In this document: one piece after another, positions 2,147-62,467 of the stretch | Layout: every line of letters starts with the position of its first letter | Numbering within the stretch: the first letter of the stretch is position 1 | Sequence record: PQ818761.1 | Source: Escherichia phage EcoM2 | DNA length: 64,000 nucleotides | Strand: one strand, 5' to 3' | Program-made: the position numbers and the translations under genes | Notes under the pieces: model-generated | What the model saw: the letters and a program-made list of their open reading frames with translations, nothing else | Databases searched by the model: none | What the model was told of the DNA's origin: nothing

Positions 2147-4513
2147 ATGCGCATGGTAAACGACCACGCAGAAGTGATTAAGAGTTCAACTTCTTTAGAG
2201 ACGTCTCAAGCACAGATTACAATGACACCTGAAATGTTCAGCCTTTTGAGTTCTGGTGTATATACCTTTAAAGAAAGGGCAGTGATTCGTGAACTGTCAT
2301 GTAACGCAGTAGATGCTCAGAAAGAAGCTGGAAAAGAGAATATCCCGTTCCATGTGCATTTACCTACTCGTTTTGAGCCTTACTTTGAAGTTCGTGATTT
2401 TGGAACTGGATTGACTCATGATAAAGTTATGAGTTTGTATCTAAATTACGGGGCTTCTACGAAGAATGACTCTAATGACTACATTGGTGCAATGGGTATC
2501 GGCTCAAAATCCCCATTTGCAATTGCTCAGTCATTCACAGTGTCTAGCTATGTTGACGGTGTTGTTAATAAGTACTCTGTTTATCTTGAGAATGGTATCC
2601 CTCAAGTAACTAAGCTGACCACTAACCCAACAAAAGAACCTAATGGTTTAGCTGTACGTGTGGCAGTTGCTGACCACCGTATTTCAAAGTTCTTTGAAGA
2701 GGCTGGTAATGTATACTCATACTTTGCTGTAAAACCAGAGAGTAATGTGGAGTATAATGATATATTAGCAGATATGGATGTGATTGCTCGTGAAGAAGGT
2801 GTCTATGATGCCATGACTCATAAGCATAGCTGGCGTTCAAGCAGCAATAGAACAGAGTTTAACGTGGTTATGGGTAATATTGCCTACCCAGTTAATATGG
2901 AGGCATTACTTGGTGATGATTTCTTCAAAGTCTTGCCAGAATTTTTCCGTAGGAGCGTAGACCTTGTAAACATCTACATGCCTATTGGTTCAGTTGCTAT
3001 CGCAGCTTCTCGTGAAGCATTGCAGATGAATGACACGACAAAAAATGTTATCATTGAGGCTACTAAAAAGATAACTGAAGCAATTACAAAGGATGTTATC
3101 AAGAAAGTTAATAGCCAACCTACACTCATGGATGCTGCACAGGCTTATGCTGAGTTACGTTTGAACTCACGAGAGATGTTTAATGCTGTGTGTCCAAAGC
3201 TAGAGTGGGGTGGTGTTAAGCTTGATTCTCTGGAAGAAGAATTACTAAACATTCGTCGTGGAATTATCTACGCAGAAGACGGCTCAGTCATTTATGAACG
3301 TGACGGCAAAGGTAATATTAAGGTTGATAGGAACGGGAACAATATCCCTAAAGTAGATTATCTTTATGACCCAGTTGCTTATGTCAAGTTCAACTCTTTA
3401 GAGAGTAAGATTCGTGCAACATCGCTTTCCTACACTCAAGAGGCAAGTATGTTCAATATCTTTGGTGCAATGCGTAAAAGCCAAATTGAACAGTTTTTGT
3501 TTGTTATAAATGACCGTCGCAATAAAAACGGTACTGAGAAGACTGTAGGACGCAATCAAATCTTGCGTGGTGCATGTCGAGACTATGCCAGTGAGTCTAG
3601 TCTGTTTCACAGATACAATGGTATTGTCTTTGTATTCTCGACTGAAAAAGAGCTAGATGACTTAATCAATCTACACAAACTTGACAAAAGCTTGTTAAAG
3701 ATTGTGAAGATGTCTGATAAGGAACACCATTATCAGCGTAAAGAAGCTGTAAGAGGTGTTGTAAAACTCTGGAAAGCTGTTCCAGCAGAAGGTGTAGCTT
3801 CCTATAAAGAGGTTTCAGAGGACTTAGACACAATTGAAGAGCCTCAACTTTATATCAAGGCAGTCGGTGACACAGTTGATGGCGAATGTTTTTGCTCATC
3901 TCCAGAAGATGTAGCTAAGTCAGTTGCCAATGTCATTGGAAAGACAGTCTATGTTTTCCGAAAAGCAAATTGGAAAAAGATACCAGAAGACTGGATTGAA
4001 GTAGATGAGAAGCTCTTGAACGACAGCTTAACTGATGTTCACTGGATTAACCATAACAGGTATATGACACGTATCTATATGAATGGTGTTCTTGACCTTA
4101 CAAGCAGTTGGATTATTGCCAGAAACTTTACGTTCAATAACAGGAAGATTTCTCGTGGCTATTGCTATTCACGAGACACAAACAAAACTATCTTCTTAGA
4201 AGGCAATGAAGATGCTGTAGAGGCAATGTTCGGTAAAATCCAATACGTTGCTGCACCGTTTGCATACACTTACACTATTAGCAGATTGCAAACTTTGAAA
4301 GAATGCCTTGACAATGATACAAAGCTATACAAGAAAATTAAGAAAGCTGGTGACCGTATGGTTATTAAGGTGACAAACTATCTTTCAAAAAGAAAACAAG
4401 AAAACTTCTTGCTTTCTCATTTAGATTGGAATAAAGTGTCACCCATCGAAGTGAGTAAGTTCTTAGGCTTTGATGTGAAGTGTGTTCCAGAAGGGACTAC
4501 AATTTACGATTAA
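2147..4513 (+). CDS. rIIA: rIIA-like protein with N-terminal GHKL-type ATPase fold
   Basis: 788 aa; Bergerat-fold-like motifs (VRDFGTGLT, GAMGIGSKS); size and position before a second large gene match the rIIA-rIIB pair of T4-like and Felix-O1-like phages. Confidence 0.55.
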   Translation: MRMVNDHAEVIKSSTSLETSQAQITMTPEMFSLLSSGVYTFKERAVIRELSCNAVDAQKEAGKENIPFHVHLPTRFEPYFEVRDFGTGLTHDKVMSLYLNYGASTKNDSNDYIGAMGIGSKSPFAIAQSFTVSSYVDGVVNKYSVYLENGIPQVTKLTTNPTKEPNGLAVRVAVADHRISKFFEEAGNVYSYFAVKPESNVEYNDILADMDVIAREEGVYDAMTHKHSWRSSSNRTEFNVVMGNIAYPVNMEALLGDDFFKVLPEFFRRSVDLVNIYMPIGSVAIAASREALQMNDTTKNVIIEATKKITEAITKDVIKKVNSQPTLMDAAQAYAELRLNSREMFNAVCPKLEWGGVKLDSLEEELLNIRRGIIYAEDGSVIYERDGKGNIKVDRNGNNIPKVDYLYDPVAYVKFNSLESKIRATSLSYTQEASMFNIFGAMRKSQIEQFLFVINDRRNKNGTEKTVGRNQILRGACRDYASESSLFHRYNGIVFVFSTEKELDDLINLHKLDKSLLKIVKMSDKEHHYQRKEAVRGVVKLWKAVPAEGVASYKEVSEDLDTIEEPQLYIKAVGDTVDGECFCSSPEDVAKSVANVIGKTVYVFRKANWKKIPEDWIEVDEKLLNDSLTDVHWINHNRYMTRIYMNGVLDLTSSWIIARNFTFNNRKISRGYCYSRDTNKTIFLEGNEDAVEAMFGKIQYVAAPFAYTYTISRLQTLKECLDNDTKLYKKIKKAGDRMVIKVTNYLSKRKQENFLLSHLDWNKVSPIEVSKFLGFDVKCVPEGTTIYD

Positions 4514-4592
4514 AGTGTTTGACAAGGGGCTTCAAAGCCCCTTAGAATAGCCTCACAAAATGATTTATTAACTAACAAGAGAGAGTAATAAG

Positions 4593-10374: not shown

Positions 10375-10405
10375 CCCCTCTCCCCCTCTTACTCCCCCTC
10401 TCCCC
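10375..10405. other. C-rich tract (i-motif) / G-quadruplex motif on the complementary strand
   Basis: CCCC-tct-CCCCC-tcttact-CCCCC-tct-CCCC; four C-runs with 3/7/3-nt loops, unusual in this AT-rich genome. Confidence 0.5.
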
Positions 10406-10526
10406 AAAAGTCAAGAGAAAAATTTGTAGCGGATTGAAAAATAATTCTTGATTTGTGTTCTGTTTTGTGGTAGTCGTGTGCGCCCGTTTCATTACAGTTT
10501 TGCTAAAAATATTTTTAAAATTTTTC

Positions 10527-10618
10527 TTGACTCTTTGAACGTGGTTATCTAGTATTTGCATCAACAGGGAGGGAATGTCCTTCCCCACTAAATAAAGTCC
10601 TAAACTGGAGATTCAAAA
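10527..10618 (+). promoter_or_regulatory. early promoter module A (TTGACT-N17-TAGTAT) with 5'-leader hairpin and conserved RBS
   Basis: Sigma70-like hexamers; leader hairpin GGGAGGGAATGTCCTTCCCC; conserved ACTAAATAAAGTCCTAAACTGGAGATTCAAAAATG. Confidence 0.55.
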
Positions 10619-11002
10619 ATGAAATACCGTGCACCTAAATTCATCAACAAAGACAACTTTCGCAACGCACTGGAGAAGTCACTTGATGAAAGTTTTAAAG
10701 GTAACATTATCGTTGTTCACGCATTCAATTTTAAGTATGATGTAAACGGGAATAGAATCAACCATTACACGGCAACCATGTTAGATGGTACACTTTCAAG
10801 TGAAAAAGCCGTACTAAATGCACTGGCAGGACGTGGAAAGGTATTAGTAAGATGTGATAAGAGACGTTATCAGGGCGGCGCATATGGTTATGATGATGCT
10901 GTTTACCATCTTGAAAATATGGGCTATCAAGTAGAAAAAGCTGGAGCATCACAAATCATCGGCAGCGATGGTTATGTAACTATCTTCAAAATTAACAAAT
11001 AA
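10619..11002 (+). CDS. hypothetical early protein
   Basis: 127 aa; ATG preceded by conserved module-A leader with GGAG RBS. Confidence 0.6.
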   Translation: MKYRAPKFINKDNFRNALEKSLDESFKGNIIVVHAFNFKYDVNGNRINHYTATMLDGTLSSEKAVLNALAGRGKVLVRCDKRRYQGGAYGYDDAVYHLENMGYQVEKAGASQIIGSDGYVTIFKINK

Positions 11003-11007
11003 AGTGC

Positions 11008-11088
11008 TTTACAGGGGGCTTATAGTTCGATAAAGTAAGCCCCAGATAAAGAGCTTTACCACTAAATCCTAAATTGGAGAACTTAAAA
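11008..11088 (+). promoter_or_regulatory. early promoter module B (TTTACA-N17-TAAAGT) embedded in GGGGCTTA/TAAGCCCC hairpin, plus conserved leader
   Basis: Repeated 6 times with the same architecture; hairpin arms covary between copies. Confidence 0.5.
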
Positions 11089-11382
11089 ATGGCTATTATC
11101 AAAAACGTTGTAATTGCTGCAAAAACTCGTGATGACGCTCGCGTTATGGCTAAAAAGTTATGCGGGAAAGTGGTTGACAACGGAAAACAATCTGCTGTAA
11201 GGTGGGGCGTGAAGGTTGATAAACAGTTGAAGTTAAAAAATTCACCGATAAACCTTTTTACATGTGTAAACACTATCGGTAAGACAAATGTATACACGAA
11301 AAAGGCATACATTAGACGCGTAGCATTAACATCCCCCATTCGTACAATGAGAAGTTATGCAAAGCTGAAAATTAACAAATAA
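11089..11382 (+). CDS. hypothetical early protein
   Basis: 97 aa from ATG 11089 behind conserved RBS; track ORF start 11074 judged an upstream extension. Confidence 0.55.
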   Translation: MAIIKNVVIAAKTRDDARVMAKKLCGKVVDNGKQSAVRWGVKVDKQLKLKNSPINLFTCVNTIGKTNVYTKKAYIRRVALTSPIRTMRSYAKLKINK

Positions 11383-11387
11383 AGTAC

Positions 11388-11467
11388 TTTACAAGGGGCT
11401 TAAAAGCTGATACCTTAAGCCCCAGATAAAGAGCTTTACCACTAAATCCTAAACTGGAGATTCTAAA
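11388..11467 (+). promoter_or_regulatory. early promoter module B (TTTACA-N17-TACCTT)
   Basis: Copy of module B with hairpin GGGGCTTAA.../TTAAGCCCC. Confidence 0.5.
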
Positions 11468-11980
11468 ATGAAAACTGTAGACGCTACCTTTGAAGTTGTA
11501 AAAGAAAAATTTTCCATCATCTACGAAGCGGTAAATTGCTACGAAGCAAGCCATAATCTCGTTAATTGGGAGTTTACAAACGACCATCAAGGCGGTGTGA
11601 CTGTTAAAAATCCTAACTGTCAGCATAATGATTTTAAATATGCAAACCCTTTGCATTACAGCCTTAAACAGCTTTCAAGTGACTATGCAAAACAAGGCCG
11701 GGAAAATCCATCAAAAGAGGCTTACGCAAGCTTACAAAAAGAACTAGAAAGAGATTTAGAGGCTTCAGAGTACAACCTTGCCGCGAAAGTTGTGGATGCA
11801 AACGGTAACACGGTTTTAGAAAGTTTTTATCTTGGTTATGCTTTCGATTGGTGCTATCGTGACGGCGATGATTTAGAGGATAGACTAAAAGAAGAGGTGA
11901 ACAATTCAGACGCAGAAACTGAAGTATTAGAACGTTTGGAATCGTTGAAAGATTCAGTGATGAATATCTTTAAGAACTAA
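11468..11980 (+). CDS. hypothetical early protein
   Basis: 170 aa behind module-B leader. Confidence 0.6.
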   Translation: MKTVDATFEVVKEKFSIIYEAVNCYEASHNLVNWEFTNDHQGGVTVKNPNCQHNDFKYANPLHYSLKQLSSDYAKQGRENPSKEAYASLQKELERDLEASEYNLAAKVVDANGNTVLESFYLGYAFDWCYRDGDDLEDRLKEEVNNSDAETEVLERLESLKDSVMNIFKN

Positions 11981-11989
11981 ATAGACCTC

Positions 11990-12072
11990 TTTACACGGGG
12001 TTATCAAGTTGGTATGATAGCCCCAGATAAAGAGATTTATCAAATAAAGCCCTTAAACTAGGAGATTCTAAA
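11990..12072 (+). promoter_or_regulatory. early promoter module B variant (TTTACA-N17-TATGAT)
   Basis: Hairpin arms changed to GGGGTTATC/GATAGCCCC (compensatory). Confidence 0.5.
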
Positions 12073-12369
12073 ATGAAATTATCAAATCAAGTGCGTGAAA
12101 ATTTGAGCAAATTACTCAACAAAATTGATTTTATCGAGACATCAAGGAATAGGCATGATGTTATGGAATGGTTACACGGCAAAATAAAAGGTCGTCGTGT
12201 AGTGATTTGCTTATGGAACAGTTGCAGGGAGTATAAAAAACCTGTATTACAAGTTAATATATACGATAATACTTTTAAAAGTCCTGTAAAGTCTAAAAGC
12301 GATTTATTAGAATCCTATGAGATAACTGTAAATGGCAAAGTATCACGTAAAGAGGAAACACCATGTTAA
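12073..12369 (+). CDS. hypothetical early protein
   Basis: 98 aa behind module-B leader. Confidence 0.55.
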   Translation: MKLSNQVRENLSKLLNKIDFIETSRNRHDVMEWLHGKIKGRRVVICLWNSCREYKKPVLQVNIYDNTFKSPVKSKSDLLESYEITVNGKVSRKEETPC

Positions 12370-12695
12370 TGACTGGTATCACTGCAATCATTGCCATTTT
12401 CGCGCTATATAAGGCATATAAAGCCTATAATCTAGCAAGTAAGGCAATTACGCAGCAGGTTAGCAATAACCTTGTAGAAAGCTTTCTAGGGCGTCTCAGT
12501 GATGAGCAAATAAAGCGGCTAGAGATGAGCTTCAGATATAAAGCGAAAACCTATCAGATAAGTGACATCTTTAAAGATGATTTTCAGTTAGTTGATGATT
12601 ATAATTCTCTGATAAATGCTTTAAACATCAATGACTTGAAAGAATATCACGCTGTAATTGTTCAAGAATTGAGCAAACGAAAACAAATCTGTTGA
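12363..12695 (+). CDS. hypothetical early membrane protein
   Basis: 110 aa; N-terminal TM segment (ITAIIAIFALY); start overlaps preceding stop. Confidence 0.5.
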   Translation: MLMTGITAIIAIFALYKAYKAYNLASKAITQQVSNNLVESFLGRLSDEQIKRLEMSFRYKAKTYQISDIFKDDFQLVDDYNSLINALNINDLKEYHAVIVQELSKRKQIC

Positions 12696-12787
12696 CACTG
12701 GTTTTTAGATAGATTAAATTACACATCAACGGGGAGGGAATGACCTCCCCCCCCACTAAATAAAGTCCTAAACTGGAGATTCAAAAA
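12692..12787 (+). promoter_or_regulatory. early promoter module A (TTGACA-N17-TAAATT) with leader hairpin
   Basis: Same architecture as 13744..13837. Confidence 0.55.
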
Positions 12788-12946
12788 ATGTTTTGTGCAG
12801 GTGATAAAGTTGTCTGGAATGATATAGATGACGGTTTATGTACGAAAGTTGTTGTTATCTTAGAAATTGATTATATCACTGGTGTTGCAACTGTAGCAGA
12901 TAATGATATAATCTTTGATGTCTTAATTAGTGAACTGTCAAAATAA
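12788..12946 (+). CDS. small hypothetical protein (52 aa, below ORF-track cutoff)
   Basis: ATG 12788 directly behind module-A leader/RBS, TAA 12944-12946. Confidence 0.4.
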   Translation: MFCAGDKVVWNDIDDGLCTKVVVILEIDYITGVATVADNDIIFDVLISELSK

Positions 12947-12971
12947 AGTCCTTAAACTAGGAGATTCAAAA

Positions 12972-13244
12972 ATGTACACTACTAACAACGGTCGCACCTT
13001 AAACGTAACCCTACGCCACTATGTGAACGGTGTAATGCACTTCGAGGATTTACAAGCTGAACAGCACATTTTGGATTGGCAACTTGCAGGATTCCAAAAA
13101 ACTGCTACCGGATACGGGAAAAAGATTCCAACTAGCTGGAAAGTATACTACGAAGGCCGTTTGCGTAGAATTTATCAAGATGTATGCGGCAATAGCGCAT
13201 CAAGTTACATCATAGTAAAAGGCAAAAAGCTGCATTTAGCATAA
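12972..13244 (+). CDS. hypothetical early protein
   Basis: 90 aa from ATG 12972 behind conserved RBS; track ORF start 12930 judged an upstream extension. Confidence 0.55.
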   Translation: MYTTNNGRTLNVTLRHYVNGVMHFEDLQAEQHILDWQLAGFQKTATGYGKKIPTSWKVYYEGRLRRIYQDVCGNSASSYIIVKGKKLHLA

Positions 13245-13249
13245 AGTAC

Positions 13250-13329
13250 TTTACAAGGGGCTTATAAGTCTGTACAGTAAGCCCCAGATAAAGAGCTTTA
13301 CCACTAAATCCTAAATTGGAGATTCAAAA
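13250..13329 (+). promoter_or_regulatory. early promoter module B (TTTACA-N17-TACAGT)
   Basis: Copy of module B. Confidence 0.5.
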
Positions 13330-13734
13330 ATGGCTATTAATAATCGTGAGTTATCTATCTTAAAAGCACGTTTGACCGTTAACCGGATTAATGTTATCAC
13401 ATCAGCAGCACCGGATGAAACACTGCAAAACATTATTGGGAAGATTCAAAGTGTTATCTTAGACGTTGAAAGCGTAAAAAACTCATTGGCTGACGTTGCA
13501 GCCGGTATCACGCTAGACGGTGCACAACATGAGATGGCCGACATGTTAGGCAAATCAAAGGTAATGAATAAAGAATTAGACTTGAAAATGTTTCGATTTG
13601 CTGTTAAAGTGTGGCTATCCGTCGAGTATGACGCTAACTTTGCAATCGCTGACTTTTTCGCCACTTGGTTGCAGCGTAATTTGTCAAATCATGATTTTCG
13701 TAATATCTGTGATGCAATTTATGCAGAACTCTAA
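13330..13734 (+). CDS. hypothetical early protein
   Basis: 134 aa behind module-B leader. Confidence 0.6.
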   Translation: MAINNRELSILKARLTVNRINVITSAAPDETLQNIIGKIQSVILDVESVKNSLADVAAGITLDGAQHEMADMLGKSKVMNKELDLKMFRFAVKVWLSVEYDANFAIADFFATWLQRNLSNHDFRNICDAIYAEL

Positions 13735-13743
13735 AAAATTTTG

Positions 13744-13837
13744 TTGACACTGGTTTTTAGATAGATTAAATTACACATCAACGGGGAGGGGATGACCTTC
13801 CCCACTAAATAAAGTCCTTAAACTAGGAGATTCTAAA
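13744..13837 (+). promoter_or_regulatory. early promoter module A (TTGACA-N17-TAAATT) with leader hairpin
   Basis: Hairpin GGGGAGGGGATGACCTTCCCC then conserved leader. Confidence 0.55.
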
Positions 13838-14035
13838 ATGGCTATTATTAACGGCTTAACCATTGAAACAACACACATCAAAGATATCAAAGTTGGTGAT
13901 GTAGTCCTTTCCCACGGCGTAGAAAAAACTGTCACTGTAAAGGATATCAAAGAGGATTCTTTCATGGGTAGAACTCTCTTCGGTGATTCTTATTGCTTAG
14001 GTTATCTTGCAGTTTTAAAAGTTGTCAAAAATTAA
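13838..14035 (+). CDS. hypothetical early protein
   Basis: 65 aa behind module-A leader. Confidence 0.5.
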   Translation: MAIINGLTIETTHIKDIKVGDVVLSHGVEKTVTVKDIKEDSFMGRTLFGDSYCLGYLAVLKVVKN

Positions 14036-14047
14036 GTAATAAAGTAC

Positions 14048-14127
14048 TTTACAAGGGGCTTAAAAAGTTGGTATCTTAAGCCCCAGATAAAGAGCTTTAC
14101 ACAGTCCTTAAACTAGGAGATTAAAGA
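14048..14127 (+). promoter_or_regulatory. early promoter module B (TTTACA-N18-TATCTT)
   Basis: Copy of module B. Confidence 0.45.
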
Positions 14128-14376
14128 ATGATGAATTATTTAAACATTCCCGACACTTGCAGACTGTTAACGCAACCAGAAAATTTAGGTAAGGCTTACC
14201 TATACCATATGCCAAATAATACGGCAAAAACTTATAGTTACACTGTTAACCGATTCACGGCATACGCTGCAAAAAACGGTTACAAGGTTGTTACTCAAAA
14301 AGTAACACTGTTTACAACTGTTGAGGAACTCCCCACGGTTGCAGTTAAACTGATTTTTTCAAAGAAAACTAAATAG
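14128..14376 (+). CDS. hypothetical early protein
   Basis: 82 aa behind module-B leader. Confidence 0.5.
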   Translation: MMNYLNIPDTCRLLTQPENLGKAYLYHMPNNTAKTYSYTVNRFTAYAAKNGYKVVTQKVTLFTTVEELPTVAVKLIFSKKTK

Positions 14377-14381
14377 ATTTC

Positions 14382-14461
14382 TTTACACGGGGTTATCAAG
14401 CTGATAAGATAGCCCCAGATAAAGAAATTTATCAAATAAATCCTAAACTGGAGATTCAAAA
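14382..14461 (+). promoter_or_regulatory. early promoter module B variant (TTTACA-N17-TAAGAT)
   Basis: Hairpin GGGGTTATC/GATAGCCCC. Confidence 0.5.
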
Positions 14462-15004
14462 ATGAAATGTTTTCACGGTACTACTCAAGAAAACTTTATC
14501 AACCTGATTAATAACGGTGATAAACCATCAGGCGCATGGAATTGTTCTGATATGGATGGGAATTTTTACGTTTACCCAGAGAATAAAATCTATGGCGACG
14601 ATGAGGAAGAAATAATCTTTGAAGGTATCCAGCAAGCTCTGGGCAATGCCACTATCACCGCAGCTTTTCAGATGAAAACTCAAAACATTGTTATCTTGGA
14701 ACTTGAGATTCCAGAAGATGAGCTAAACGATGATTATTCTTGTGATAATATGTCGAGCGTGGCAAGTTTTACAGAATATTTCGATTTAAATTGGATTAAA
14801 AAGGTTTACATCACTGAATTTAATGCTATGTATTCGCCTTTTTGTCTTCCTTCACTGGATAACCCAAATATGAATTATCTTGATGAGACATTAGAACTAC
14901 TTGCTAAAAGTGTTCAACAATCGGACAGTATTCAGGTTTTTTGTGACATCATGGACACACTAACGGAAAACATCGCAGAAGAGGATTTAAAGAGCTTTTT
15001 CTAA
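14462..15004 (+). CDS. hypothetical early protein
   Basis: 180-aa acidic protein behind module-B leader. Confidence 0.6.
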   Translation: MKCFHGTTQENFINLINNGDKPSGAWNCSDMDGNFYVYPENKIYGDDEEEIIFEGIQQALGNATITAAFQMKTQNIVILELEIPEDELNDDYSCDNMSSVASFTEYFDLNWIKKVYITEFNAMYSPFCLPSLDNPNMNYLDETLELLAKSVQQSDSIQVFCDIMDTLTENIAEEDLKSFF

Positions 15005-15036
15005 AACCCTATGCAATCACATTATAAACACTATTC

Positions 15037-15057
15037 AGCCCCTTGTAGGGGCTTTTA
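15037..15057 (+). terminator. rho-independent terminator
   Basis: AGCCCC-ttgta-GGGGCT followed by TTTT. Confidence 0.55.
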
Positions 15058-15070
15058 AGAGGCTTAAATC

Positions 15071-15304
15071 ATGCTTACAACCGTTTATCTTATCCTTTCT
15101 ATATGTAATGGTCATTCATGCGATTTTAAAGGGCTTGAAGAGTTTACAGGAAGTAAAGAAAATGCTATTCAAGTTTGCCAGATAGCGAGACAAGACTATC
15201 CCGCAAGTGATGATATTCAGTGTTACTTTAAGACAGAAGATGAAGACGGTATCTATTTTGACAGTGTAGATGGTCAGTATGAAATTATCATTGAAAAAGA
15301 CTAG
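15071..15304 (+). CDS. hypothetical early protein
   Basis: 77-aa ORF. Confidence 0.45.
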   Translation: MLTTVYLILSICNGHSCDFKGLEEFTGSKENAIQVCQIARQDYPASDDIQCYFKTEDEDGIYFDSVDGQYEIIIEKD

Positions 15305-15395
15305 ACAAGCCTGATAAAAATCTGTAAATTGTCAATCAACGGGGAGGGAATGACCTTCCCCACTAAATAAAGTCCTTAAACTAGGAGATTCAAAA
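15302..15395 (+). promoter_or_regulatory. early promoter module A (TAGACA-N17-TAAATT) with leader hairpin
   Basis: Conserved TAAATT + 7 nt + ATCAACGGGGAGGGAATGACCTTCCCC. Confidence 0.5.
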
Positions 15396-15737
15396 ATGGC
15401 TTATGTAACCGTAATTACCGATAAAGCTGGCGCATCTTGGTCAACTCAAGTAAGCGATAAGATGTCACCTATGCAGTGCCTAAAATACTTTGAACAGTGG
15501 AATAAAGGCGAGGACACAAGCCCCTTTCAAGTGATGCAGATTATCCATGTAGACAACGAAGGGAATAAAACTGTTTTGAACAGTGAGTACTATGCAACCC
15601 GATTTGAAACGAGAAGTAAAACAATGAAACTTTTACGTGAATCCGGTTATTCCCATATCGCCGCGTTAATCTGGGATGACCTGCTAAAAAACCAACGTAT
15701 CAGCTATGTAAAACCTGAAAAAATATTCATCAGTTAA
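15396..15737 (+). CDS. hypothetical early protein
   Basis: 113 aa behind module-A leader. Confidence 0.6.
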   Translation: MAYVTVITDKAGASWSTQVSDKMSPMQCLKYFEQWNKGEDTSPFQVMQIIHVDNEGNKTVLNSEYYATRFETRSKTMKLLRESGYSHIAALIWDDLLKNQRISYVKPEKIFIS

Positions 15738-15866
15738 TCAATAACTTACAAAAAACTTTCAAAAAAGTATTGACAAAGCCCCTTGACATTGGTAGATTTG
15801 TTCGAGGGGGTTTATCTAAAAGGGATTAACTTAAAAGATTCTTTATAGATAAGCTCAAAAAATTAC

Positions 15867-15957
15867 TTGCAATCAACTATCAAAACAAGTAAATTACTAA
15901 TCAACGGGAAGGCAATAACCTCCCCACTAAATAAAGTCCTAAACTGGAGATTCTAAA
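15867..15957 (+). promoter_or_regulatory. early promoter module A (TTGCAA-N17-TAAATT) with leader hairpin variant
   Basis: Hairpin GGGAAGGCAATAACCTCCCC. Confidence 0.5.
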
Positions 15958-16488
15958 ATGAACAAATTTCAAGCTATCAACTTCATTCGTTCAAATGCTG
16001 TAATGTCAAAGCCTGTTAAAGACACCTATGAATTTCGTTGTAATGGTGTACATTTTGCAACAATCACCAAATCAGAAAACGGGGCTTATTACGTCCATCG
16101 TCGTAATGTTTCTACTGTTGTAGTTTCTCACTTTATGCAAGCTGTCGCGGAACTTCTCCCGATGTTTTTAGGTCTTTACTTAGATGAGTGTAAAAACGTT
16201 CACAATCACGTTAAAAACCTTTTAAACAGTTATAAAATGGCTTATGAACGTTCTATCAAGTCCTTAAACAAGTTTTACAACGCACCTGAAAATACTGTGT
16301 CAATGGCCTATGCTGTAAATGGTGATGCGGTGAGTCTCTTTGAAGTGGAAGAAATCAAGCTGCATGATTTACGCACTAGCGGTTACTCTAAGACTCTCGG
16401 TGAAGGTTTAACGTTCAATATCAAGAACTTAGAAAAAACTTTAAAAGATATTGAAAAAGATATTGACGAGACAATCAAAAGTCTGTAA
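15958..16488 (+). CDS. hypothetical early protein
   Basis: 176 aa behind module-A leader. Confidence 0.6.
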   Translation: MNKFQAINFIRSNAVMSKPVKDTYEFRCNGVHFATITKSENGAYYVHRRNVSTVVVSHFMQAVAELLPMFLGLYLDECKNVHNHVKNLLNSYKMAYERSIKSLNKFYNAPENTVSMAYAVNGDAVSLFEVEEIKLHDLRTSGYSKTLGEGLTFNIKNLEKTLKDIEKDIDETIKSL

Positions 16489-16554
16489 ATTGTCAATCAA
16501 CGGGGAGGGAATGACCTTCCCCACTAAGTAAAATCCTAAACTGGAGTTATCAAG
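16463..16554 (+). promoter_or_regulatory. early promoter module A (TTGACG-N17-TAAATT) with leader hairpin
   Basis: -35 lies within the 3' end of the upstream gene. Confidence 0.5.
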
Positions 16555-16818
16555 ATGGAAAACGTAGAATTAACCACACTTTTACAAATTGCAACCGACA
16601 AAGAAGACGTAGCATTATTTCACCGTATCGAAAGCGATTTATTCAATGGTGAAATCATCAAAGAATCTTATGAAGTTGTCGGATTCAAAGATGGTAAAGC
16701 ATTTGGCTTTTTTGACCTCGACAAAGGCAACGCGGTTACAAAATACGATGTTTTATCTTGTGAGATTCTGACAAAATACAACGAAAAAAGGCTTGCAACA
16801 TACGCCAACATGCAGTAA
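16555..16818 (+). CDS. hypothetical early protein
   Basis: 87 aa behind module-A leader. Confidence 0.55.
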   Translation: MENVELTTLLQIATDKEDVALFHRIESDLFNGEIIKESYEVVGFKDGKAFGFFDLDKGNAVTKYDVLSCEILTKYNEKRLATYANMQ

Positions 16819-16884
16819 ATTATCAATCAACGGGAGGCGATAACCTCCCCACTAAATAAAACCCTTAAACTAGGAGATTCAAAA
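16793..16884 (+). promoter_or_regulatory. early promoter module A (TTGCAA-N17-TAAATT) with leader hairpin variant
   Basis: Hairpin GGGAGGCGATAACCTCCCC. Confidence 0.5.
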
Positions 16885-17133
16885 ATGGCAACTATCCGCG
16901 CAACTGTCAATGCTTATGGCTGTTATACTCTGGACGTTAAATTTGATATTGGTGGAACTGATGAGTGTTTTTCATTAGTGAAGACAGTTATCAAGCAAGT
17001 TATCCCAGATTATAACCCTACTGATGACTTCTGGAAAGACGCTGTAAAAGAGGCATTAAACGACGAGCATCACTATCATTACTGGGGTGACTTGATTATC
17101 TCACTGTACTACAATAAACAAGGTTACAACTAA
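16885..17133 (+). CDS. hypothetical early protein
   Basis: 82 aa behind module-A leader; last gene of the array. Confidence 0.55.
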   Translation: MATIRATVNAYGCYTLDVKFDIGGTDECFSLVKTVIKQVIPDYNPTDDFWKDAVKEALNDEHHYHYWGDLIISLYYNKQGYN

Positions 17134-17171
17134 TCGACGCAACGGGGCTAAATAGCCCCAGATACCTTCAC

Positions 17172-17194
17172 AGCCCCATTTAAGGGGCTTTTTT
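17172..17194 (+). terminator. rho-independent terminator ending the early array
   Basis: AGCCCC-attta-AGGGGCT followed by TTTTTT; preceded by a second GGGGCT/AGCCCC hairpin. Confidence 0.65.
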
Positions 17195-17199
17195 ACGTC

Positions 17200-18750
17200 T
17201 ATGTAATAGCCCCTATACAATCCTTTCCCTTTCCTTTCCAGAATCTTACTAGACCTTAAAAGCAATAACTCTATAGCTTACTCTATAACCCCTTATCAAA
17301 TCAACTTAAATATAAGCCCATAACCCGAAAGGGAAGGGCAACCGTTTAAACGCTCTATAAAGCTCTATAACAGCCTTATCAACCTAACTTAAGGGATTGC
17401 ATTACCTCACCCTTAAAAGCCCTTTATAAAGCTTCTCAGAGCCTTAAAAGAATCTTATAAGGGTGTAAGCTTTATTATCTCGTTAGTTCCTTGTGAATAT
17501 CTAGAAAGGGCTATGAGATAGGAATCTATCGAATCCTATTGTTAGTGTCTTAAAAGTGTGTTATAGGGGCTATGAAGTTACTTCAAAGTTGCTTAAAAGT
17601 TACGTAAATGCTAGCCCCCTTAACATTTTCTTAACAATTTCTTAACAAACCCTACATAGTTATGCTTTTAAGGCACTTGTTAGCAACTTGTTAGCCCCTT
17701 GTTAAATCTCTGTTAAAACCACGTAAAAGCCTTGTAAGAGTCTTTGACATAGCCTTAAAAGCTCCTGTAAAGCTCTATAAAAAGGTGTCTGTACAGTTGG
17801 GGTGTAATTACTAGGAAGAGACTTAAAAGAGCTTACAAAGAGCTATAGAGAGCTTTTAAGAGGTATGTTTAAGGAATCACTAAGAAAGGAAAGGGAATGA
17901 TAAGAAAAGGGATAGTGACCATGTTAATAGCTTGTTAAAAAGATTAGACACTTGTTAGGAACTTGTTAATTATCTTAACAAAATAACTCTTAAAAATTAA
18001 CTTGTTAGCTCTTGTTAGTCACTGTTAAGACTCTGTAAAGACCATGTATCGACTGTTAAGAACTTGTTACAGCCTTGTTAGTTCTGTTAAGAGTCTGTTA
18101 AGACCTCTGAAGAGATGTTAAGAGCTTGAGAGAGTTGTTAAGAGATTGTTAAGGATATTTTAAAATTCTGCAAAGGGGATGTTACAGGGATGTTAAGGGC
18201 TACCAAGCAGATATACATCCTAGACAGATATTTTTCAGTTCCTTCAAAAACCCTAAAAAATGACTTGATAGCCCTATTTTATAAAAATTTTAAAAATCTG
18301 AATAATTACCTAGACAGTCTTTCAAAAATACAGGTAGAAACAGGCTTATAAGATACCTTGTTAGTACCGTGTTAGACCTTGTGAGATAAGGTCTGTAAAG
18401 ATATTCCTGTTAAGTTTGTTAAAACAGTCTATATAGAGGCTTAGTAATACCTAGTGAACACCTATAGAGGGTCATCTATGTGACATAGAGATTAAGAGGT
18501 GTATAGGAGCTTCTAAGAATGTGTAGAGAGATGGTTAAGGTGATTGTATAGGTTGTTAAGAATGCTTGTTAGAAGAGTGTTTAGAAGGGCTATACAGATG
18601 GGCTATTAAGACCACTAGATAGATACTAAGATACTATATAGTACTATATAACTGTATATAGAGAGTAAGCTTAAGAAGGGTGTTAAGAAGGATAGATATT
18701 TTATTCACATATGATGGTGACCCAGAGGTTGGGACAACCGATAAAATTTT
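17200..18750. repeat. 1.6-kb repeat-rich region with no ORF of 60 aa or more (dense GTTAAG/CTTGTTAG/CTTAAAAG/CTATAAAG words)
   Basis: No ORF of 60 aa or more in any frame on the track; tens of short related words, some in inverted orientation (CTTAAC x3 at 17618-17646); lies between convergent transcription units. Confidence 0.6.
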
Positions 18751-23906: not shown

Positions 23907-25039
23907 TATGCCTCCCCTGCTGGGTTAACTGTAACTGTTGCCGCATTAGATGTTACAGAACCACCTGCGCCAGTCACTACACAGGTGTAGCTTCCTGCAT
24001 CAGCAGCGGTTGCACCTTCTTTGGTGTAAGTTGCAGCAGTTGCATCTGGGATGACTTCCTCACCTTTCTTCCACTGATAACCTGTCGCACCTGTTGCCAC
24101 AACATTCAGTGTTAAGGTCTCACCTTCAGTGATTTCTTGATTGGTTGGTTGCTGAGTGATTACCGGAAGTGCATTCACAGTAACTGTTGCAGGGCTAGAA
24201 GTAACAGAACCACCTGCACCTGTTACAACGCAAGTGTATGAACCTGCATCTGCTGGCAGAGCACCAGACTTGCTATAGGTAGCGTTTGTCGCTGAAGGAA
24301 TGTCAGAGCCATCTTTCTTCCACTGGTAACCTGTCGCACCTGTTGCAGTAACTACTAAGTTGATGTTTCCACCTTCATTAATAGTCTGATTAGAAGGTTG
24401 CTTGGTAATCACAGGTAGTGCGTTCACAGTAACTGTTGCTGCATCTGAGGTAACACTTGTTCCACCCTCTCCAGATACAACACAAGTGTATGAACCAGCG
24501 TCAGAAGGTGCTACTGACTGTTTTGTGTAAGTTGCAGAATTGGCACTAGGGATATCCTCACCATCCTTCTTCCACTGATATCCAGTGGCGTTAGTTGCTA
24601 GAATGCTTAGAGTAAGTGTGCCACCCTCATTGACTGTTTGACCTGTTGGTTGCTGAGTAATTGCTGGTGGCTTAATAGCATCCTTCAACTTAGCATTCAA
24701 CATTGAGAACGGCTTAACTCTTGCCAACCATTCACAATACACTGTGTCAACGTCTTTACCATTGATGATTGCATACTGTAAATCCATGAAGAAATCAGCA
24801 GTCCTCATCTGTGCACCAACACTGTAAAGGAGTTCATCACTAAAAGGAACTTTGTAGTCTGGTTTGTAGTCAAACTTCGCAACCTCTGCAATATCAGCTT
24901 CAGGCCAATATGAGCTATAGGTTAGCGGTAAAATAGCTTCTTGATATGTTCTAAAATCATATCTCTTACCAGCCTTTACATTTGCAACGAAACCTTTTAC
25001 AAATTCTTTGAAGTCTGGGTAAGTCTTTGCTTTAATCAT
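23906..25039 (-). CDS. Ig-like repeat protein (N-terminal domain plus three tandem Ig-like domains; Hoc-like surface protein candidate)
   Basis: 377 aa; three ~80-aa repeats each with PVITxQP...GATGYQWKKDG...AGSYTCVV; N-terminal ~120 aa paralogous to adjacent 123-aa ORF. Confidence 0.55.
   Translation of the reverse strand: MIKAKTYPDFKEFVKGFVANVKAGKRYDFRTYQEAILPLTYSSYWPEADIAEVAKFDYKPDYKVPFSDELLYSVGAQMRTADFFMDLQYAIINGKDVDTVYCEWLARVKPFSMLNAKLKDAIKPPAITQQPTGQTVNEGGTLTLSILATNATGYQWKKDGEDIPSANSATYTKQSVAPSDAGSYTCVVSGEGGTSVTSDAATVTVNALPVITKQPSNQTINEGGNINLVVTATGATGYQWKKDGSDIPSATNATYSKSGALPADAGSYTCVVTGAGGSVTSSPATVTVNALPVITQQPTNQEITEGETLTLNVVATGATGYQWKKGEEVIPDATAATYTKEGATAADAGSYTCVVTGAGGSVTSNAATVTVNPAGEA
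23909..24652 (-). repeat. three tandem ~240-bp repeats encoding Ig-like domains
   Basis: Near-identical protein repeats visible in translation. Confidence 0.6.
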
Positions 25040-33155: not shown

Positions 33156-33230
33156 TAGTCCAAGTAGCTTATATGGTTAAAGCGCGTGTCTGAAAAACAT
33201 GAGAAGAGGGTTCAAATCCCACTGGACTAC
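33156..33230 (+). tRNA. tRNA-Phe (anticodon GAA)
   Basis: Acceptor TAGTCCA/TGGACTA; anticodon stem CGTGT/ACATG loop CTGAAAA; T-loop TTCAAAT; 3' CAA (CCA not encoded). Confidence 0.55.
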
Positions 33231-33248
33231 CAATTTCAAAGGTGCTTA

Positions 33249-33983
33249 ATGAAAGAGATGACAGAACAAGGTAAGGAGATTTTTAATCTCTTAAAAACCG
33301 GTAGAGGGTTTTCTAATCCCCTTATTACTGGTGCAGCAGTTCTAGGTGGAACCGTAGCTGCCTCTACATCACTTGTAAGCTCTATTAGCTCTGTAACAGA
33401 CCCTACAATAAAGGATAAGCTTGTTGCCGCTGGACTGACAACAGTTCTGCTTAACAGCTTTACAACGAGTCTGACAAGCACTACATCAACTACTAAGACA
33501 TTGACAGATTATGGTCAAAAGTCTATTGATGAGTTTTCCTCACGTATGCAGGTAGCAAAAGGCTACTCCAATGTTATGGGTGCAGCAGGAGAGCAAGTTG
33601 GTTGTACACCATTTAGTGGTATTATGGGTGTTGCTACAGAGTATGGTCAAAAAGCTATTGACACAATTAACAGTGCACTAGACGGTGTTAATGATGTATT
33701 AAGTGACTTACAAGATGCTATTGATAAAGGTCTTGATACTGTTTCTGATTTAGCTAACCAAGCTGTTAGTAAGATTAATGAAGGTATCTCGAAGATTACA
33801 GCTTATGCAGATGAAGTTGTGCAGATGATTGAAGAAGAAGCTGCCCTTATTGCAGAGTACCTTAAAACGAATATCAATGGGTTCTTAGCAGGTATCTTAC
33901 CAGACTGGTTTGATGATGCTTGTAAAACTGGTGTAATTGACACTATTGCAACACCAGAAATGAAGAACGCATTACAGAAATAA
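33249..33983 (+). CDS. hypothetical protein (Ser/Thr-rich N-terminal region, acidic helical C-terminus)
   Basis: ATG 33249 with AAAGG RBS; track ORF start 33186 rejected because it overlaps tRNA-Phe. Confidence 0.5.
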   Translation: MKEMTEQGKEIFNLLKTGRGFSNPLITGAAVLGGTVAASTSLVSSISSVTDPTIKDKLVAAGLTTVLLNSFTTSLTSTTSTTKTLTDYGQKSIDEFSSRMQVAKGYSNVMGAAGEQVGCTPFSGIMGVATEYGQKAIDTINSALDGVNDVLSDLQDAIDKGLDTVSDLANQAVSKINEGISKITAYADEVVQMIEEEAALIAEYLKTNINGFLAGILPDWFDDACKTGVIDTIATPEMKNALQK

Positions 33984-33984
33984 T

Positions 33985-34077: not shown

Positions 34078-34081
34078 ATTT

Positions 34082-34157: not shown

Positions 34158-34194
34158 AGTTATTTTACTCTCTCTCAATTAAAATAATAATAAT

Positions 34195-55048: not shown

Positions 55049-55094
55049 TTTCTTTACAGGGACTTTGTAGTCCCTTTTTAGAGGAAAATTTATA

Positions 55095-62020: not shown

Positions 62021-62024
62021 CAAC

Positions 62025-62465: not shown

Positions 62466-62467
62466 AA

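What the first reader, a model, noticed from the sequence alone, without database searches (positions are those of the whole stretch)
11015..14410. Compensatory base changes in the module-B hairpin imply selection on structure
Four copies have arms GGGGCTTA/TAAGCCCC (11015-11043, 11395-11423, 13257-13285, 14055-14083) while two (11997-12025, 14389-14417) have GGGGTTATC/GATAGCCCC. Both arms changed together while the TTTACA -35 and TAnnnT -10 spacing is kept. The hairpin therefore probably acts as a structure (DNA cruciform, operator or RNA processing/stability element) rather than as primary sequence only.
Basis: seen in the sequence. Interest (0 to 1): 0.5.

Follow-up and report, generated by a model that had tools for sequence, protein, structure and literature searches.

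The report
Promoter-embedded RNA hairpin between phage early genes
The repeated hairpin wrapped around six early promoters of this Felix O1-like phage is real and has been kept by compensatory changes across four phage genera, so it works as a structure, most likely in read-through RNA, much like the promoter/stem-loop cassettes known from T4-type phages.

Summary
The window is the early small-gene array of a Felix O1-like phage (Ounavirinae). All six hairpins exist, with three end coordinates off by one. I collected 211 copies from 58 loci in four genera, chosen only by their flanks. In the 9-bp stem 96.7% of cells pair, against 83.5% in shuffles and at most 56% in shifted registers. Five of nine pairs change on both sides. 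One-sided changes are almost all G·U on the sense strand (114 cells against 5 A·C). This argues against a cruciform and a symmetric protein operator, and for a sense-strand fold, most likely RNA.

Inside the otherwise variable loop, TA (invariant) and T (at least 90%) of a -10 box are kept 17 bp from an invariant TTTACA. The inferred start site lies just after the stem, so the hairpin would be present only in RNA reading through from the upstream gene.

New here: the hairpin is the tip of an interrupted stem of about 20 bp, which pairs the -35 box with the transcript's own leader.

The anatomy, the ORFan setting and the recombination breakpoints match PeSL cassettes of T4-type phages. Its activity (attenuator, 3' protective hairpin or RNase III site) is untested.

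The parts
11000..11058 (+). Module B copy 1, type 1. -35 TTTACA 11008-11013, -10 TAAAGT 11031-11036, tip hairpin 11015-11043. Extended stem: 11000-11005/11053-11058 and 11007-11011/11047-11051. Inferred start at A 11044. Downstream ATG at 11089.
11380..11438 (+). Module B copy 2, type 1. -35 11388-11393, -10 TACCTT 11411-11416, tip hairpin 11395-11423 (9 bp). Downstream ATG at 11468.
11981..12040 (+). Module B copy 3, type 2. -35 11990-11995, -10 TATGAT 12013-12018, tip hairpin 11997-12024 (GGGGTTATC/GATAGCCCC, T.G at pair 5). Lower stems 11981-11993/12028-12040. Downstream ATG at 12073.
13242..13300 (+). Module B copy 4, type 1. -35 13250-13255, -10 TACAGT 13273-13278, tip hairpin 13257-13285. 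Extended stem 13242-13253/13289-13300. Downstream ATG at 13330.
14040..14099 (+). Module B copy 5, type 1 with an 18-bp spacer. -35 14048-14053, -10 TATCTT 14072-14077, tip hairpin 14055-14084. Downstream ATG at 14128.
14373..14432 (+). Module B copy 6, type 2. -35 14382-14387, -10 TAAGAT 14405-14410, tip hairpin 14389-14416. Uninterrupted 13-bp lower stem ATAGATTTCTTTA/TAAAGAAATTTAT. Downstream ATG at 14462.
4512..4549 (+). Relative of module B with different geometry. It has the same upstream AAAGTGTTTGACA and the same AAGGGGCT arm, but the right arm AGCCCCTT follows a 4-nt loop. The hairpin (4524-4543) therefore lies inside the 18-bp spacer, and the -10 TAGAAT (4543-4548) lies almost wholly outside it, sharing only the first T.
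   Evidence: (family D11)
12692..12750 (+). Module A, shown for contrast. Promoter TTGACA-17-TAAATT (12692-12720) is followed by, not wrapped in, a GC-rich hairpin at 12731-12750. Similar module-A-type promoter/hairpin units lie near 10527, 13744, 15302, 15770, 16463 and about 16790.
17172..17189 (+). Canonical intrinsic terminator (AGCCCCATTTAAGGGGCT followed by TTTTT) that closes the early cassette array. It shows that the phage uses T-run terminators where it needs them.
   Evidence: Felix O1 terminator t23 in PMC3185647

Best explanation
Module B is a composite cassette boundary of the PeSL type. At the DNA level it is a sigma-70 early promoter: extended -35 AAAGTnCTTTACA, a 17-bp spacer, -10 TAnnnT, and an inferred start at the A of AGATAAAG. 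A 9-bp GC-capped stem encloses the spacer, the -10 and the discriminator. Because the stem ends at -1, it is absent from the promoter's own transcript. It is present in sense RNA that reads through from the upstream cassette, where it forms within about 10-20 nt of that gene's stop codon. There it is the tip of an interrupted stem of about 20 bp (9 + 5 + 6 bp, with 3x3 and 1x1 internal loops). The lower strands of that stem are the -35 box region and nt +4 to +15 of the leader.

I infer that this RNA structure marks the end of the upstream message. It would do so by attenuating read-through and/or by giving a stable, exonuclease-resistant 3' end. The conserved module of about 100 bp would also serve as a homology patch for gaining, losing and duplicating ORFan cassettes.

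Shown: the structure is under selection, it is specific to the + strand, the promoter signature is conserved, and homology breakpoints fall at modules. Inferred: the start site, that RNA rather than single-stranded DNA is the folding species, and the attenuator or stabiliser activity.
For: (1) Covariation. For the tip, 96.7% of cells pair, 5 of 9 pairs change on both sides, and the score is 0.377 against 0.136 (0/500), with slid registers at most 0.056. For the full 20-pair model, 96.5% pair against 87.5%, and the score is 0.254 against 0.103 (0/500). Pair types include G-C/U-A at pair 3 (Erwinia phages), C-G/U.G/U-A at pair 5, U-A/A-U at pair 7, A-U/U-A at pair 8 and four Watson-Crick types at pair 9.

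(2) Strand specificity. There are 114 G.U cells against 5 A.C (96.5% against 87.9% paired). Single-step haplotype links run 9 WC<->G.U against 1 WC<->A.C.

(3) Selection on stability. The extra closing pair is present in 24 of 33 T.G-type cores against 4 of 32 C-G-type cores (Fisher 1e-6), and mean dG is -13.1 against -13.9 kcal/mol.

(4) The three-helix fold is the MFE in three window copies and in an Erwinia phage copy, with z from -2.6 to -4.8.

(5) Promoter signature. TTTACA is invariant, and T24, A25 (invariant) and T29 (at least 90%) sit in a variable loop. Five of six copies are called by the consensus scan.

(6) Module A puts a GC hairpin after its promoter, and the 4519 variant puts the same arms inside the spacer. 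The common feature is a hairpin at the end of the upstream gene.

(7) PeSL anatomy matches point by point, and a PeSL stem-loop reduced downstream lacZ as strongly as rrnB T1 (PMC2839356).

(8) 26 of 37 homology-breakpoint clusters lie in modules that cover 26% of the region (p = 3e-8). Michonne carries a tandem 430-bp cassette duplication bounded by module B copies.

(9) The flanked genes are ORFans.
Against: No T-run follows the stem. The tail is AGATAAAGAG in 199 of 211 copies, the loop is 10-13 nt, and the terminator scan calls none of the six. It is therefore not a canonical intrinsic terminator, and any attenuation is unproven.

No transcript map for this phage group was found, so the start site and the existence of read-through RNA are inferences.

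G.T tolerance also fits a hairpin in + strand single-stranded DNA.

Seven of the eleven lower-helix pairs never vary. They overlap the -35 box or the conserved leader, so they say nothing either way, and the key lower pair is unpaired in 8 of 63 rows.

Copies are paralogues that recombine, so cells are not independent events. I count about 5-6 independent double changes.

Breakpoints at intergenic spacers are expected to some degree in any case, because breaks inside genes are removed by selection.
Confidence: 0.55

Rival explanations
1. RNase III-type processing signal. In read-through RNA the interrupted stem of about 20 bp is cut by host RNase III, as at the T7 early intercistronic sites. 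Cutting on the 3' side of the 3x3 internal loop would leave the upstream mRNA with a protective 3' hairpin. The downstream mRNA would then begin almost where the promoter's own transcript begins.
For: The predicted stem of 9 + 5 + 6 bp spans about two helical turns with internal loops. According to PMC1540722, E. coli RNase III substrates typically span two helical turns, coaxially stacked short helices can suffice, and internal loops restrict cleavage to one strand, leaving protective 3' hairpins. The element sits between cistrons of an early, host-polymerase-transcribed phage array. The 3' side of the internal loop (AGA) coincides with the inferred +1 to +3.
Against: Nothing here tests cleavage. 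Proximal- and distal-box determinants were not examined. The lower helix has limited covariation. Module A and the 4519 variant have only short hairpins of 7-8 bp without an extended stem, so RNase III cannot be the function shared by all cassette hairpins. The tip alone is far too short for RNase III.
Confidence: 0.2
2. DNA-level control of the promoter itself. A hairpin on the non-template strand, or a cruciform extruded under negative supercoiling, would change the spacer and -10 geometry, making these promoters sensitive to supercoiling or self-limiting.
For: The stem exactly brackets the spacer, the -10 and the discriminator and ends at -1. The + strand is the non-template strand, and G.T is the least destabilising DNA mismatch, so the strand asymmetry does not exclude + strand DNA. 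A designed promoter regulated by superhelix-induced cruciform extrusion has been described (Horwitz and Loeb 1988; from memory, not checked here).
Against: Loops of 10-13 nt and arms of 8-9 bp give only -2.5 to -6.5 kcal/mol with DNA parameters. The - strand arm carries an A.C mismatch in most copies outside Felixounavirus, and a cruciform needs both arms. The open complex melts only about -11 to +2, which does not free the left arm. The 4519 variant and module A keep a hairpin but place it differently relative to the -10.
Confidence: 0.1
3. Operator. A dimeric phage or host protein binds the inverted repeat GGGGCTTA-N13-TAAGCCCC on double-stranded DNA and shuts off the early promoters. The arms co-vary because both half-sites must fit the same subunit.
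For: The half-site centres lie about 21 bp apart, two helical turns, and cover the -10. Lineage-wide arm variants such as GGTG/CACC in all Erwinia-phage copies could reflect co-evolution with a protein.
Against: The half-sites are asymmetric in about half of the distinct cores (left GGGGT, right equivalent GGGGC), and the asymmetry always runs in the G.T direction. At least two different arm sequences coexist in one genome. The same arms occur 4 nt apart at 4524-4543. Ten early cassette proteins have no recognisable DNA-binding domain, which is weak evidence.
Confidence: 0.05
4. No selection on structure. Complementarity is maintained mutationally, by template switching within quasi-palindromes and gene conversion among paralogous modules. 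The apparent compensation would then be hitch-hiking of a few ancestral haplotypes.
For: Copies are paralogues that clearly recombine. Many both-sides cells descend from a few events. Loop inversion (TCAA/TTGA) at the 4519 palindrome among relatives shows that palindrome-mediated rearrangement occurs.
Against: Pairing is retained across four genera while the loop and flanks diverge. Template-switch correction would erase T.G wobbles, yet they persist as the majority state in three genera. One-sided changes are biased 9:1 toward wobble in the single-step network. Stability is compensated by an extra closing pair.
Confidence: 0.05

Closest known systems
PeSLs (promoter-early stem-loops) of T4-type phages RB49/phi1, T4/PST and KVP40/nt-1 (Arbiol et al. 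2010, PMC2839356; Comeau et al. 2014, PMC4122927)
   Same: The order of parts is the same: upstream stop codon in an AT-rich stretch, sigma-70-like -35 and -10, then a stem-loop with a G-run and a C-run that most often lies between the boxes or overlaps the -10. G-T pairs are tolerated, and a Shine-Dalgarno sequence and ATG close the module. PeSLs are also repeated many times in a region of small ORFans, and indel and replacement boundaries fall at the motifs.
   Different: The phage lineage differs (Ounavirinae, not T4-type), and I have shown no sequence homology to PeSLs. Here the stem is backed by cross-genus covariation, which the PeSL papers do not report ('covari' and 'compensat' have 0 occurrences in the 2014 paper). 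Here the stem also extends to about 20 bp by pairing the -35 box with the leader. Terminator activity and mini-circles, shown for PeSLs, are untested here.
Phage T7 early-mRNA RNase III processing signals (R1.1 and relatives; Pertzev and Nicholson 2006, PMC1540722)
   Same: Both are intercistronic hairpins in early phage RNA made by host polymerase. Both span about two helical turns interrupted by internal loops. The expected product is an upstream mRNA with a protective 3' hairpin.
   Different: No cleavage data exist here and the box determinants were not examined. T7 sites are not embedded in promoters. T7 early genes share upstream promoters, whereas here every cassette has its own.
Rho-independent (intrinsic) terminators
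   Same: A GC-rich stem just downstream of a stop codon. Its stability (-12 to -16 kcal/mol for the tip) is in the range of the terminators listed for Felix O1.
   Different: There is no U-tract and the loop is 10-13 nt. The genuine terminators of this phage have T-runs (17172-17189; PMC3185647 Table 2).
Palindromic operators and superhelix-dependent cruciform promoters
   Same: An inverted repeat that covers the promoter spacer and the -10.
   Different: The arms are asymmetric in the G.T sense, the loop is long, the DNA arms are weak, and the same arms occur at another spacing.
The 57-bp 'direct repeats' reported in the Felix O1 genome paper (Whichard et al. 2010, PMC3185647)
   Same: This is the same element: CTTTACATGGGGCTTAAAAGTCTGTAAAGTAAGCCCCAGATAAAGAGCTTTACCACT, between genes 15/16 and 19/20.
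   Different: The paper lists it only as a direct repeat. It does not call it a promoter or a hairpin, and it states that how transcription is organised is not known.

Membership tests
PeSL (promoter-early stem-loop cassette) | Sigma-70-like -35 and -10 boxes with 16-18 bp spacing | tested here: met
   TTTACA is invariant in 211 copies. TA (invariant) and T (at least 90%) are conserved at 17-bp spacing within a variable loop. Five of six window copies are called by the consensus scan. Promoter activity itself was not tested.
PeSL (promoter-early stem-loop cassette) | Stable stem-loop with a G-tract and a C-tract, placed between the boxes or overlapping the -10 | tested here: met
   GGGG...CCCC stem of 8-10 bp, -12 to -16 kcal/mol in the window. 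The left arm starts 1 nt after the -35 and the right arm overlaps the end of the -10. The 4519 variant lies between the boxes.
PeSL (promoter-early stem-loop cassette) | Upstream gene's stop codon in an AT-rich stretch 5' of the -35; Shine-Dalgarno sequence and ATG at the 3' end | tested here: met
   Seen directly in all six copies, e.g. ...AACAAATAAAGTGCTTTACA... then ...TAAATTGGAGAACTTAAAAATG.
PeSL (promoter-early stem-loop cassette) | Many copies in a hyperplastic region of small ORFans | tested here: met
   About 15 promoter-led cassettes lie between 10.5 and 17.1 kb. Ten proteins have no Pfam match and only PHROGs of unknown function.
PeSL (promoter-early stem-loop cassette) | Indel, replacement and duplication boundaries between related genomes fall at the motifs | tested here: met
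   26 of 37 breakpoint clusters fall in modules that cover 26% of the region, p = 3e-8. Michonne has a tandem cassette duplication bounded by module B. This is consistent with modular shuffling but does not prove that recombination occurs within the motifs.
PeSL (promoter-early stem-loop cassette) | Stem-loop lowers downstream expression in vivo; mini-circles form by recombination between motifs | not testable with these tools
   Needs reporter assays and inverse PCR on infected cells.
Intrinsic terminator | Short loop and a U-tract directly after the stem | tested here: not met
   The loop is 10-13 nt. The tail is AGATAAAGAG in 199 of 211 copies. None of the six is called by the terminator scan.
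E. coli RNase III processing signal | About two helical turns of (quasi-)continuous helix, often with an internal loop at the cleavage site | tested here: inconclusive
   A stem of 9 + 5 + 6 bp with 3x3 and 1x1 loops is predicted in four copies, and the 20-pair model is 96.5% paired. The lower helix has little independent covariation, and this is a prediction only.
E. coli RNase III processing signal | Proximal- and distal-box base-pair determinants; cleavage by the enzyme | not tested
   The box rules were not applied. Cleavage needs an experiment.
Symmetric dimer operator | Two equivalent half-sites at a fixed spacing | tested here: not met
   Pair 5 is T.G, so the half-sites differ, in 33 of 68 distinct cores. 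Several arm sequences coexist in one genome. The same arms lie 4 nt apart at 4524-4543.
Rfam families | Match to any curated RNA family | tested here: not met
   In window 10400-17300 the only match up to E = 1 is a sub-threshold STnc280 hit (27.7 bits against a gathering score of 80) on the other strand.

The most novel reading that the evidence does not exclude
The promoter and an RNA-processing site are one and the same sequence. The -35 box and the first 15 nt of the promoter's own leader form the two strands of a processing stem that exists only in read-through RNA. Host RNase III, or a phage nuclease, cuts at the internal loop. Every message in the array would then end in the same protective hairpin and begin at nearly the same nucleotide, whether it was initiated at its own promoter or upstream. 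This would be a built-in way to make uniform monocistronic mRNAs from tandem, freely shuffled cassettes.
Probability: 0.2. Interest if true: 0.65.

Novelty: new member of a known kind. Interest (0 to 1): 0.45.

Why it matters
Felix O1-like phages are widely used for Salmonella and E. coli typing, biocontrol and therapy. Yet the genome paper states that how their transcription is organised and timed is not known. This analysis makes three contributions:

- It turns a pair of unexplained direct repeats into a defined promoter-plus-structure element present in at least 287 sequenced phages.
- It shows that PeSL-style cassettes are not peculiar to T4-type phages. This suggests either convergence on, or ancient sharing of, one solution for expressing and shuffling early ORFans.
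- It supplies what I did not find in the PeSL papers I read: comparative evidence that the stem is selected, and on which strand.

The left arm lies in the promoter spacer, so the stem can be broken and restored without touching either promoter hexamer. That makes the function directly testable.

Tried and rejected
- The first scan of viral contigs, with AGATAAAGANNTTTAYC, was too loose. Most of the 120 loci were chance hits. It was replaced by CAGATAAAGAGCTTTAC plus GenBank regions.
- My first anchor regex missed copies whose loop contains GATAAAG, such as 11008. This was fixed.
- MAFFT on full cores (A1) gapped only the right arm of type 2 and broke its register. I therefore used flank-anchored gapless alignments with the loop replaced by a constant linker (A2 and A3). 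These are built from flanks only, but they fix type 2 in the substitution register rather than the paired-deletion register.
- The 'direct repeat' TAAAGnGCTTTA flanking the hairpin looked at first like a target-site duplication. It is itself palindromic and forms the lower stem, and its upstream copy is part of a general extended -35 motif.
- The near-match TCCCAGATAAAG at 19691 is chance.
- Embedded hairpins at 28643 (7 bp, AT-rich) and at 16463 (6 bp; a similar GACAAT/ATTGTC pairing may exist near 15302) are not clearly above chance once the module B paralogues are set aside.
- Rfam gave nothing.
- Two literature searches for transcript maps of Felix O1-like phages found none.
- Pfam and PHROGs on ten cassette proteins gave no functional lead.
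- I did not use the large protein-homology, structure-prediction or covariance-model tools, because the question concerns nucleic-acid structure and the anchored alignments answered it.

Full report
WHAT THE WINDOW IS. Megablast of 10800-14700 finds 249 phage records. The best is Escherichia phage PHB11 at 94.7% identity, and nearly all hits are Felix O1-like myoviruses. The finding lies in the early array of small + strand genes downstream of rIIA/rIIB. About 15 short ORFs between 10.5 and 17.1 kb each follow a conserved intergenic module of about 85-100 bp. A canonical hairpin plus T-run at 17172-17189 closes the array.

CHECK OF THE OBSERVATION. All six hairpins are present. Four are GGGGCTTA...TAAGCCCC (11015-11043, 11395-11423, 13257-13285, 14055-14084). 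Two are GGGGTTATC...GATAGCCCC (11997-12024, 14389-14416). Each hairpin sits 1 nt after an invariant TTTACA. A TAnnnT hexamer lies 17 bp (once 18 bp) from that box. The right arm overlaps the last 1-3 nt of the hexamer and ends directly before AGATAAAG. The type-2 stem has T.G at its fifth pair. On its own, the window shows about one evolutionary event, so I looked for more copies.

COLLECTING COPIES WITHOUT SELECTING FOR THE STEM. A 103-nt module query finds 1384 places in 287 records across Ounavirinae: Felixounavirus, Mooglevirus, Suspvirus and Kolesnikvirus. I fetched early regions from eleven GenBank phages and Ounavirinae contigs from IMG/VR. I then extracted every site that has TTTACN followed 26-36 nt later by NGATAAAGANNTTT. 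The anchors lie outside the stem. This gave 211 genuine copies in 58 loci, with 68 distinct cores and 30 distinct arm pairs.

THE STEM CO-VARIES.
- Variants include GGGGTTTA(T/A)/(A/T)TAAGCCCC (pair 5 T.G) and GGGGTTTAT/ATAAACCCC (pair 5 T-A).
- Also seen: GGTGTTTA(T/G)/(A/C)TAAGCACC in Erwinia phages (pair 3 T-A), and GGGGTTATA/TATAGCCCC beside GGGGTTATC/GATAGCCCC (pair 9 A-T or C-G).
- On a flank-anchored gapless alignment (A2), 96.7% of cells pair, against 83.5 ± 1.2% in shuffles (0/500).
- Five of nine pairs change on both sides, giving 41 such cells against 9.2 expected.
- The covariation score is 0.377 against 0.136 (0/500). Registers slid by 1-3 columns pair in 21-56% of cells and score at most 0.056.
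- Counting events rather than cells, I see about five or six independent double changes. Type 1 and type 2 may instead differ by a paired 1-bp deletion.

WHICH STRAND FOLDS.
- One-sided transitions from a Watson-Crick pair give G.T on one strand and A.C on the other, with equal expectation.
- In the 20-pair model there are 114 G.U cells and 5 A.C cells. The + strand is 96.5% paired and the - strand 87.9%.
- In a network of arm haplotypes that differ by one substitution, nine links are WC<->G.U. One link is WC<->A.C, a singleton that also destroys the -10 T. Four are WC<->mismatch, three of them at the terminal pair.
- T.G at pair 5 is the majority state in three of four genera.
- Copies with that wobble carry an extra closing pair (the base after the -35 with the first leader base) in 24 of 33 distinct cores, against 4 of 32 for C-G copies (Fisher 1e-6). 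Mean stabilities are alike, -13.1 and -13.9 kcal/mol. Lineage confounding is possible, but the association recurs within single genomes.
- With DNA parameters the arms are weak, and weaker on the - strand: -6.5/-6.4, -6.1/-4.5 and -3.8/-2.5 kcal/mol.
- These results argue against a cruciform, which needs both arms, and against a symmetric dimer operator, whose half-sites should be equivalent.
- A relative of the module at 4512-4549 keeps the same arms only 4 nt apart, inside the spacer, with the -10 almost wholly outside the stem. That does not fit a fixed-spacing operator either.

THE PROMOTER READING. In the MAFFT alignment of 68 cores the loop varies freely, except for an invariant TA and a T conserved in at least 90% of cores. 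These sit at the -12, -11 and -7 positions of a hexamer 17 bp from the invariant TTTACA. AAAGTnnTTkACA recurs at many other promoter-like sites in these genomes, so it looks like an extended -35 motif. The consensus scan calls five of the six copies. From the usual spacing, transcription should start at the A of AGATAAAG (a CA start 8 nt after the -10). That would explain why CCCCAGATAAAG is so constant. This start site is an inference. If it is right, the stem is absent from the promoter's own RNA and occurs only in RNA arriving from the upstream cassette.

A LONGER STRUCTURE.
- Folding whole intergenic regions as RNA shows that the 9-bp hairpin is the tip of an interrupted stem.
- UAAAGU pairs with GCUUUA (6 bp). 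After a 1x1 loop, CUUUA (most of the -35 box and the C before it) pairs with UAAAG (leader +4 to +8).
- A 3x3 loop (CAN/AGA) then leads to the tip.
- The same fold is the MFE in Erwinia phage phiEa21-4, with z = -4.8.
- The 20-pair model is 96.5% paired against 87.5% in shuffles, with covariation 0.254 against 0.103 (0/500).
- The lower helix is less well supported. Seven of its eleven pairs never vary, and they overlap the -35 box or the conserved leader. One pair alternates G-C (43) with U-A (11) but is unpaired in 8 rows. Two pairs vary by wobble.
- Module A gives only a simple hairpin of 7-8 bp placed after its promoter.

WHAT IT PROBABLY DOES. What module B, the 4519 variant and module A share is a GC-capped hairpin within about 10-20 nt of the upstream stop codon. 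This points to a role at the end of the upstream message.

It is not a canonical intrinsic terminator. The loop is 10-13 nt, no T-run follows, and the scan calls none, while the phage's real terminators do have T-runs.

The closest described system is the PeSL of T4-type phages. PeSLs show the same order of parts and the same preferred stem positions. They tolerate G-T pairs, sit among ORFans, and have been proposed as recombination sites. One PeSL stem-loop cut downstream lacZ expression as strongly as rrnB T1.

Here, 26 of 37 homology-breakpoint clusters between the window and its relatives fall in modules that occupy 26% of the region (p = 3e-8). Michonne carries a tandem 430-bp cassette duplication bounded by module B copies. 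The ten cassette proteins tested are ORFans.

My best explanation (0.55) is a PeSL-type boundary element that acts in read-through RNA as an attenuator and/or 3' stabiliser, and in DNA as a homology patch. A more specific variant (0.2) is an RNase III site like the T7 early processing signals. The stem has about two helical turns and internal loops of the kind that limit cleavage to one strand and leave a protective 3' hairpin (PMC1540722). DNA-level promoter control (0.1), an operator (0.05) and purely mutational maintenance (0.05) are less likely, for the reasons above.

WHAT IS KNOWN. The Felix O1 genome paper lists this element and module A only as 57-bp and 39-bp direct repeats. It states that transcriptional organisation and timing are not understood. 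One related record, vB_EcoM_ASO1A, annotates module A as promoter plus terminator but leaves module B unannotated. In the searchable library PeSLs are described only for T4-type phages, and the two PeSL papers I read report no covariation analysis. Rfam has no matching family. I found no transcript map for this phage group.

VERDICT. The evidence narrows it to a sense-strand, most likely RNA, structure. I file the element as a new member of a known kind: PeSL-like promoter/stem-loop cassettes, here in Ounavirinae. It brings one feature I did not find in the PeSL papers I read, the pairing of the -35 box with the transcript's own leader. Interest is moderate (0.45). The element is well supported and easy to test, but its most likely function is one already proposed for other phages.

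Noticed in passing
window 4512-4549: A promoter with the same upstream motif and the same AAGGGGCT arm as module B, but with the hairpin (4524-4543, 4-nt loop) entirely inside an 18-bp spacer before a TAGAAT -10. Among relatives the loop is either TCAA or its reverse complement TTGA, which suggests the palindrome has been inverted.
   Followed up: partly
window 10527-10618, 12692-12787, 13744-13837, 15302-15395, 15770-15957, 16463-16554, about 16790-16884: Module A cassettes: near-consensus TTGACA-17-TAAATT promoters followed by a GGGGAGGG...CCTCCCC hairpin that would lie at the 5' end of their own transcript. The stem sequence differs among copies and genera (e.g. GGGGCAAGATAAAGCCCC in Michonne, L122 about 9990), so it may co-vary too. 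Not tested.
   Followed up: partly
window and loci generally, e.g. window 12684-12697 and 28636-28648: AAAGTnnTT(G/T)ACA recurs upstream of many promoter-like sites, including the one before the tRNA cluster. It looks like a phage-wide extended -35 or proximal UP-like motif.
   Followed up: partly
window 11060-11088 and every other cassette leader: The leaders share ...CCTAAA(C/T)TGGAGA... or ...TAAACTAGGAGA... with a GGAG Shine-Dalgarno sequence. GGAG in early-mRNA SD sequences is the target of T4 RegB (from memory). One related record (mistaenkt, L127:2134-2727) labels the gene after rIIB 'endoribonuclease', whereas XTG1 labels its counterpart as a T4 vs-regB intergenic-region protein. I did not check whether a RegB-like enzyme is encoded.
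   Followed up: no
window 12043-12014 and 14435-14406 (- strand): Both type-2 modules also match a promoter consensus on the opposite strand (TTGATA-18-TATCAT and TTGATA-18-TATCTT; 10 and 9 of 12). An antisense promoter is possible, but this is a consensus match only.
   Followed up: no
L122 (Citrobacter phage Michonne) 7009-7870: Tandem duplication of a 430-bp cassette (gp101/gp102 paralogues) with alternating module B variants at 7009/7439 and 7356/7786. This looks like unequal crossing-over between modules.
   Followed up: partly
GenBank GU169904.1 (Staphylococcus phage SA1) and MG065664.1 (Campylobacter phage A132): Records labelled as Staphylococcus and Campylobacter phages carry this enterobacterial Felix O1-type module at 88-93% identity (five places in SA1). 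This suggests chimeric, contaminated or mislabelled records.
   Followed up: no
window 28643-28680: The promoter-like site in front of the tRNA cluster (TTGACA-18-TAAAGT) has a 7-bp AT-rich inverted repeat AACCACT/AGTGGTT with the same layout as module B: the left arm begins at the last base of the -35 box and the right arm overlaps the -10. This may be chance (0.42 such sites expected among 55).
   Followed up: partly
window 28746-34165; 23925-24502; 54797-57323; 61756-63420: Other repeat families: the T-arm and acceptor ends of a tRNA gene cluster of at least a dozen genes, three 249-bp tandem-like repeats at 23.9-24.5 kb, and repeated blocks at 54.8-57.3 kb and 61.8-63.4 kb. The 54.8-57.3 kb blocks may correspond to the gp76/gp77 repeats noted for Felix O1.
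   Followed up: no
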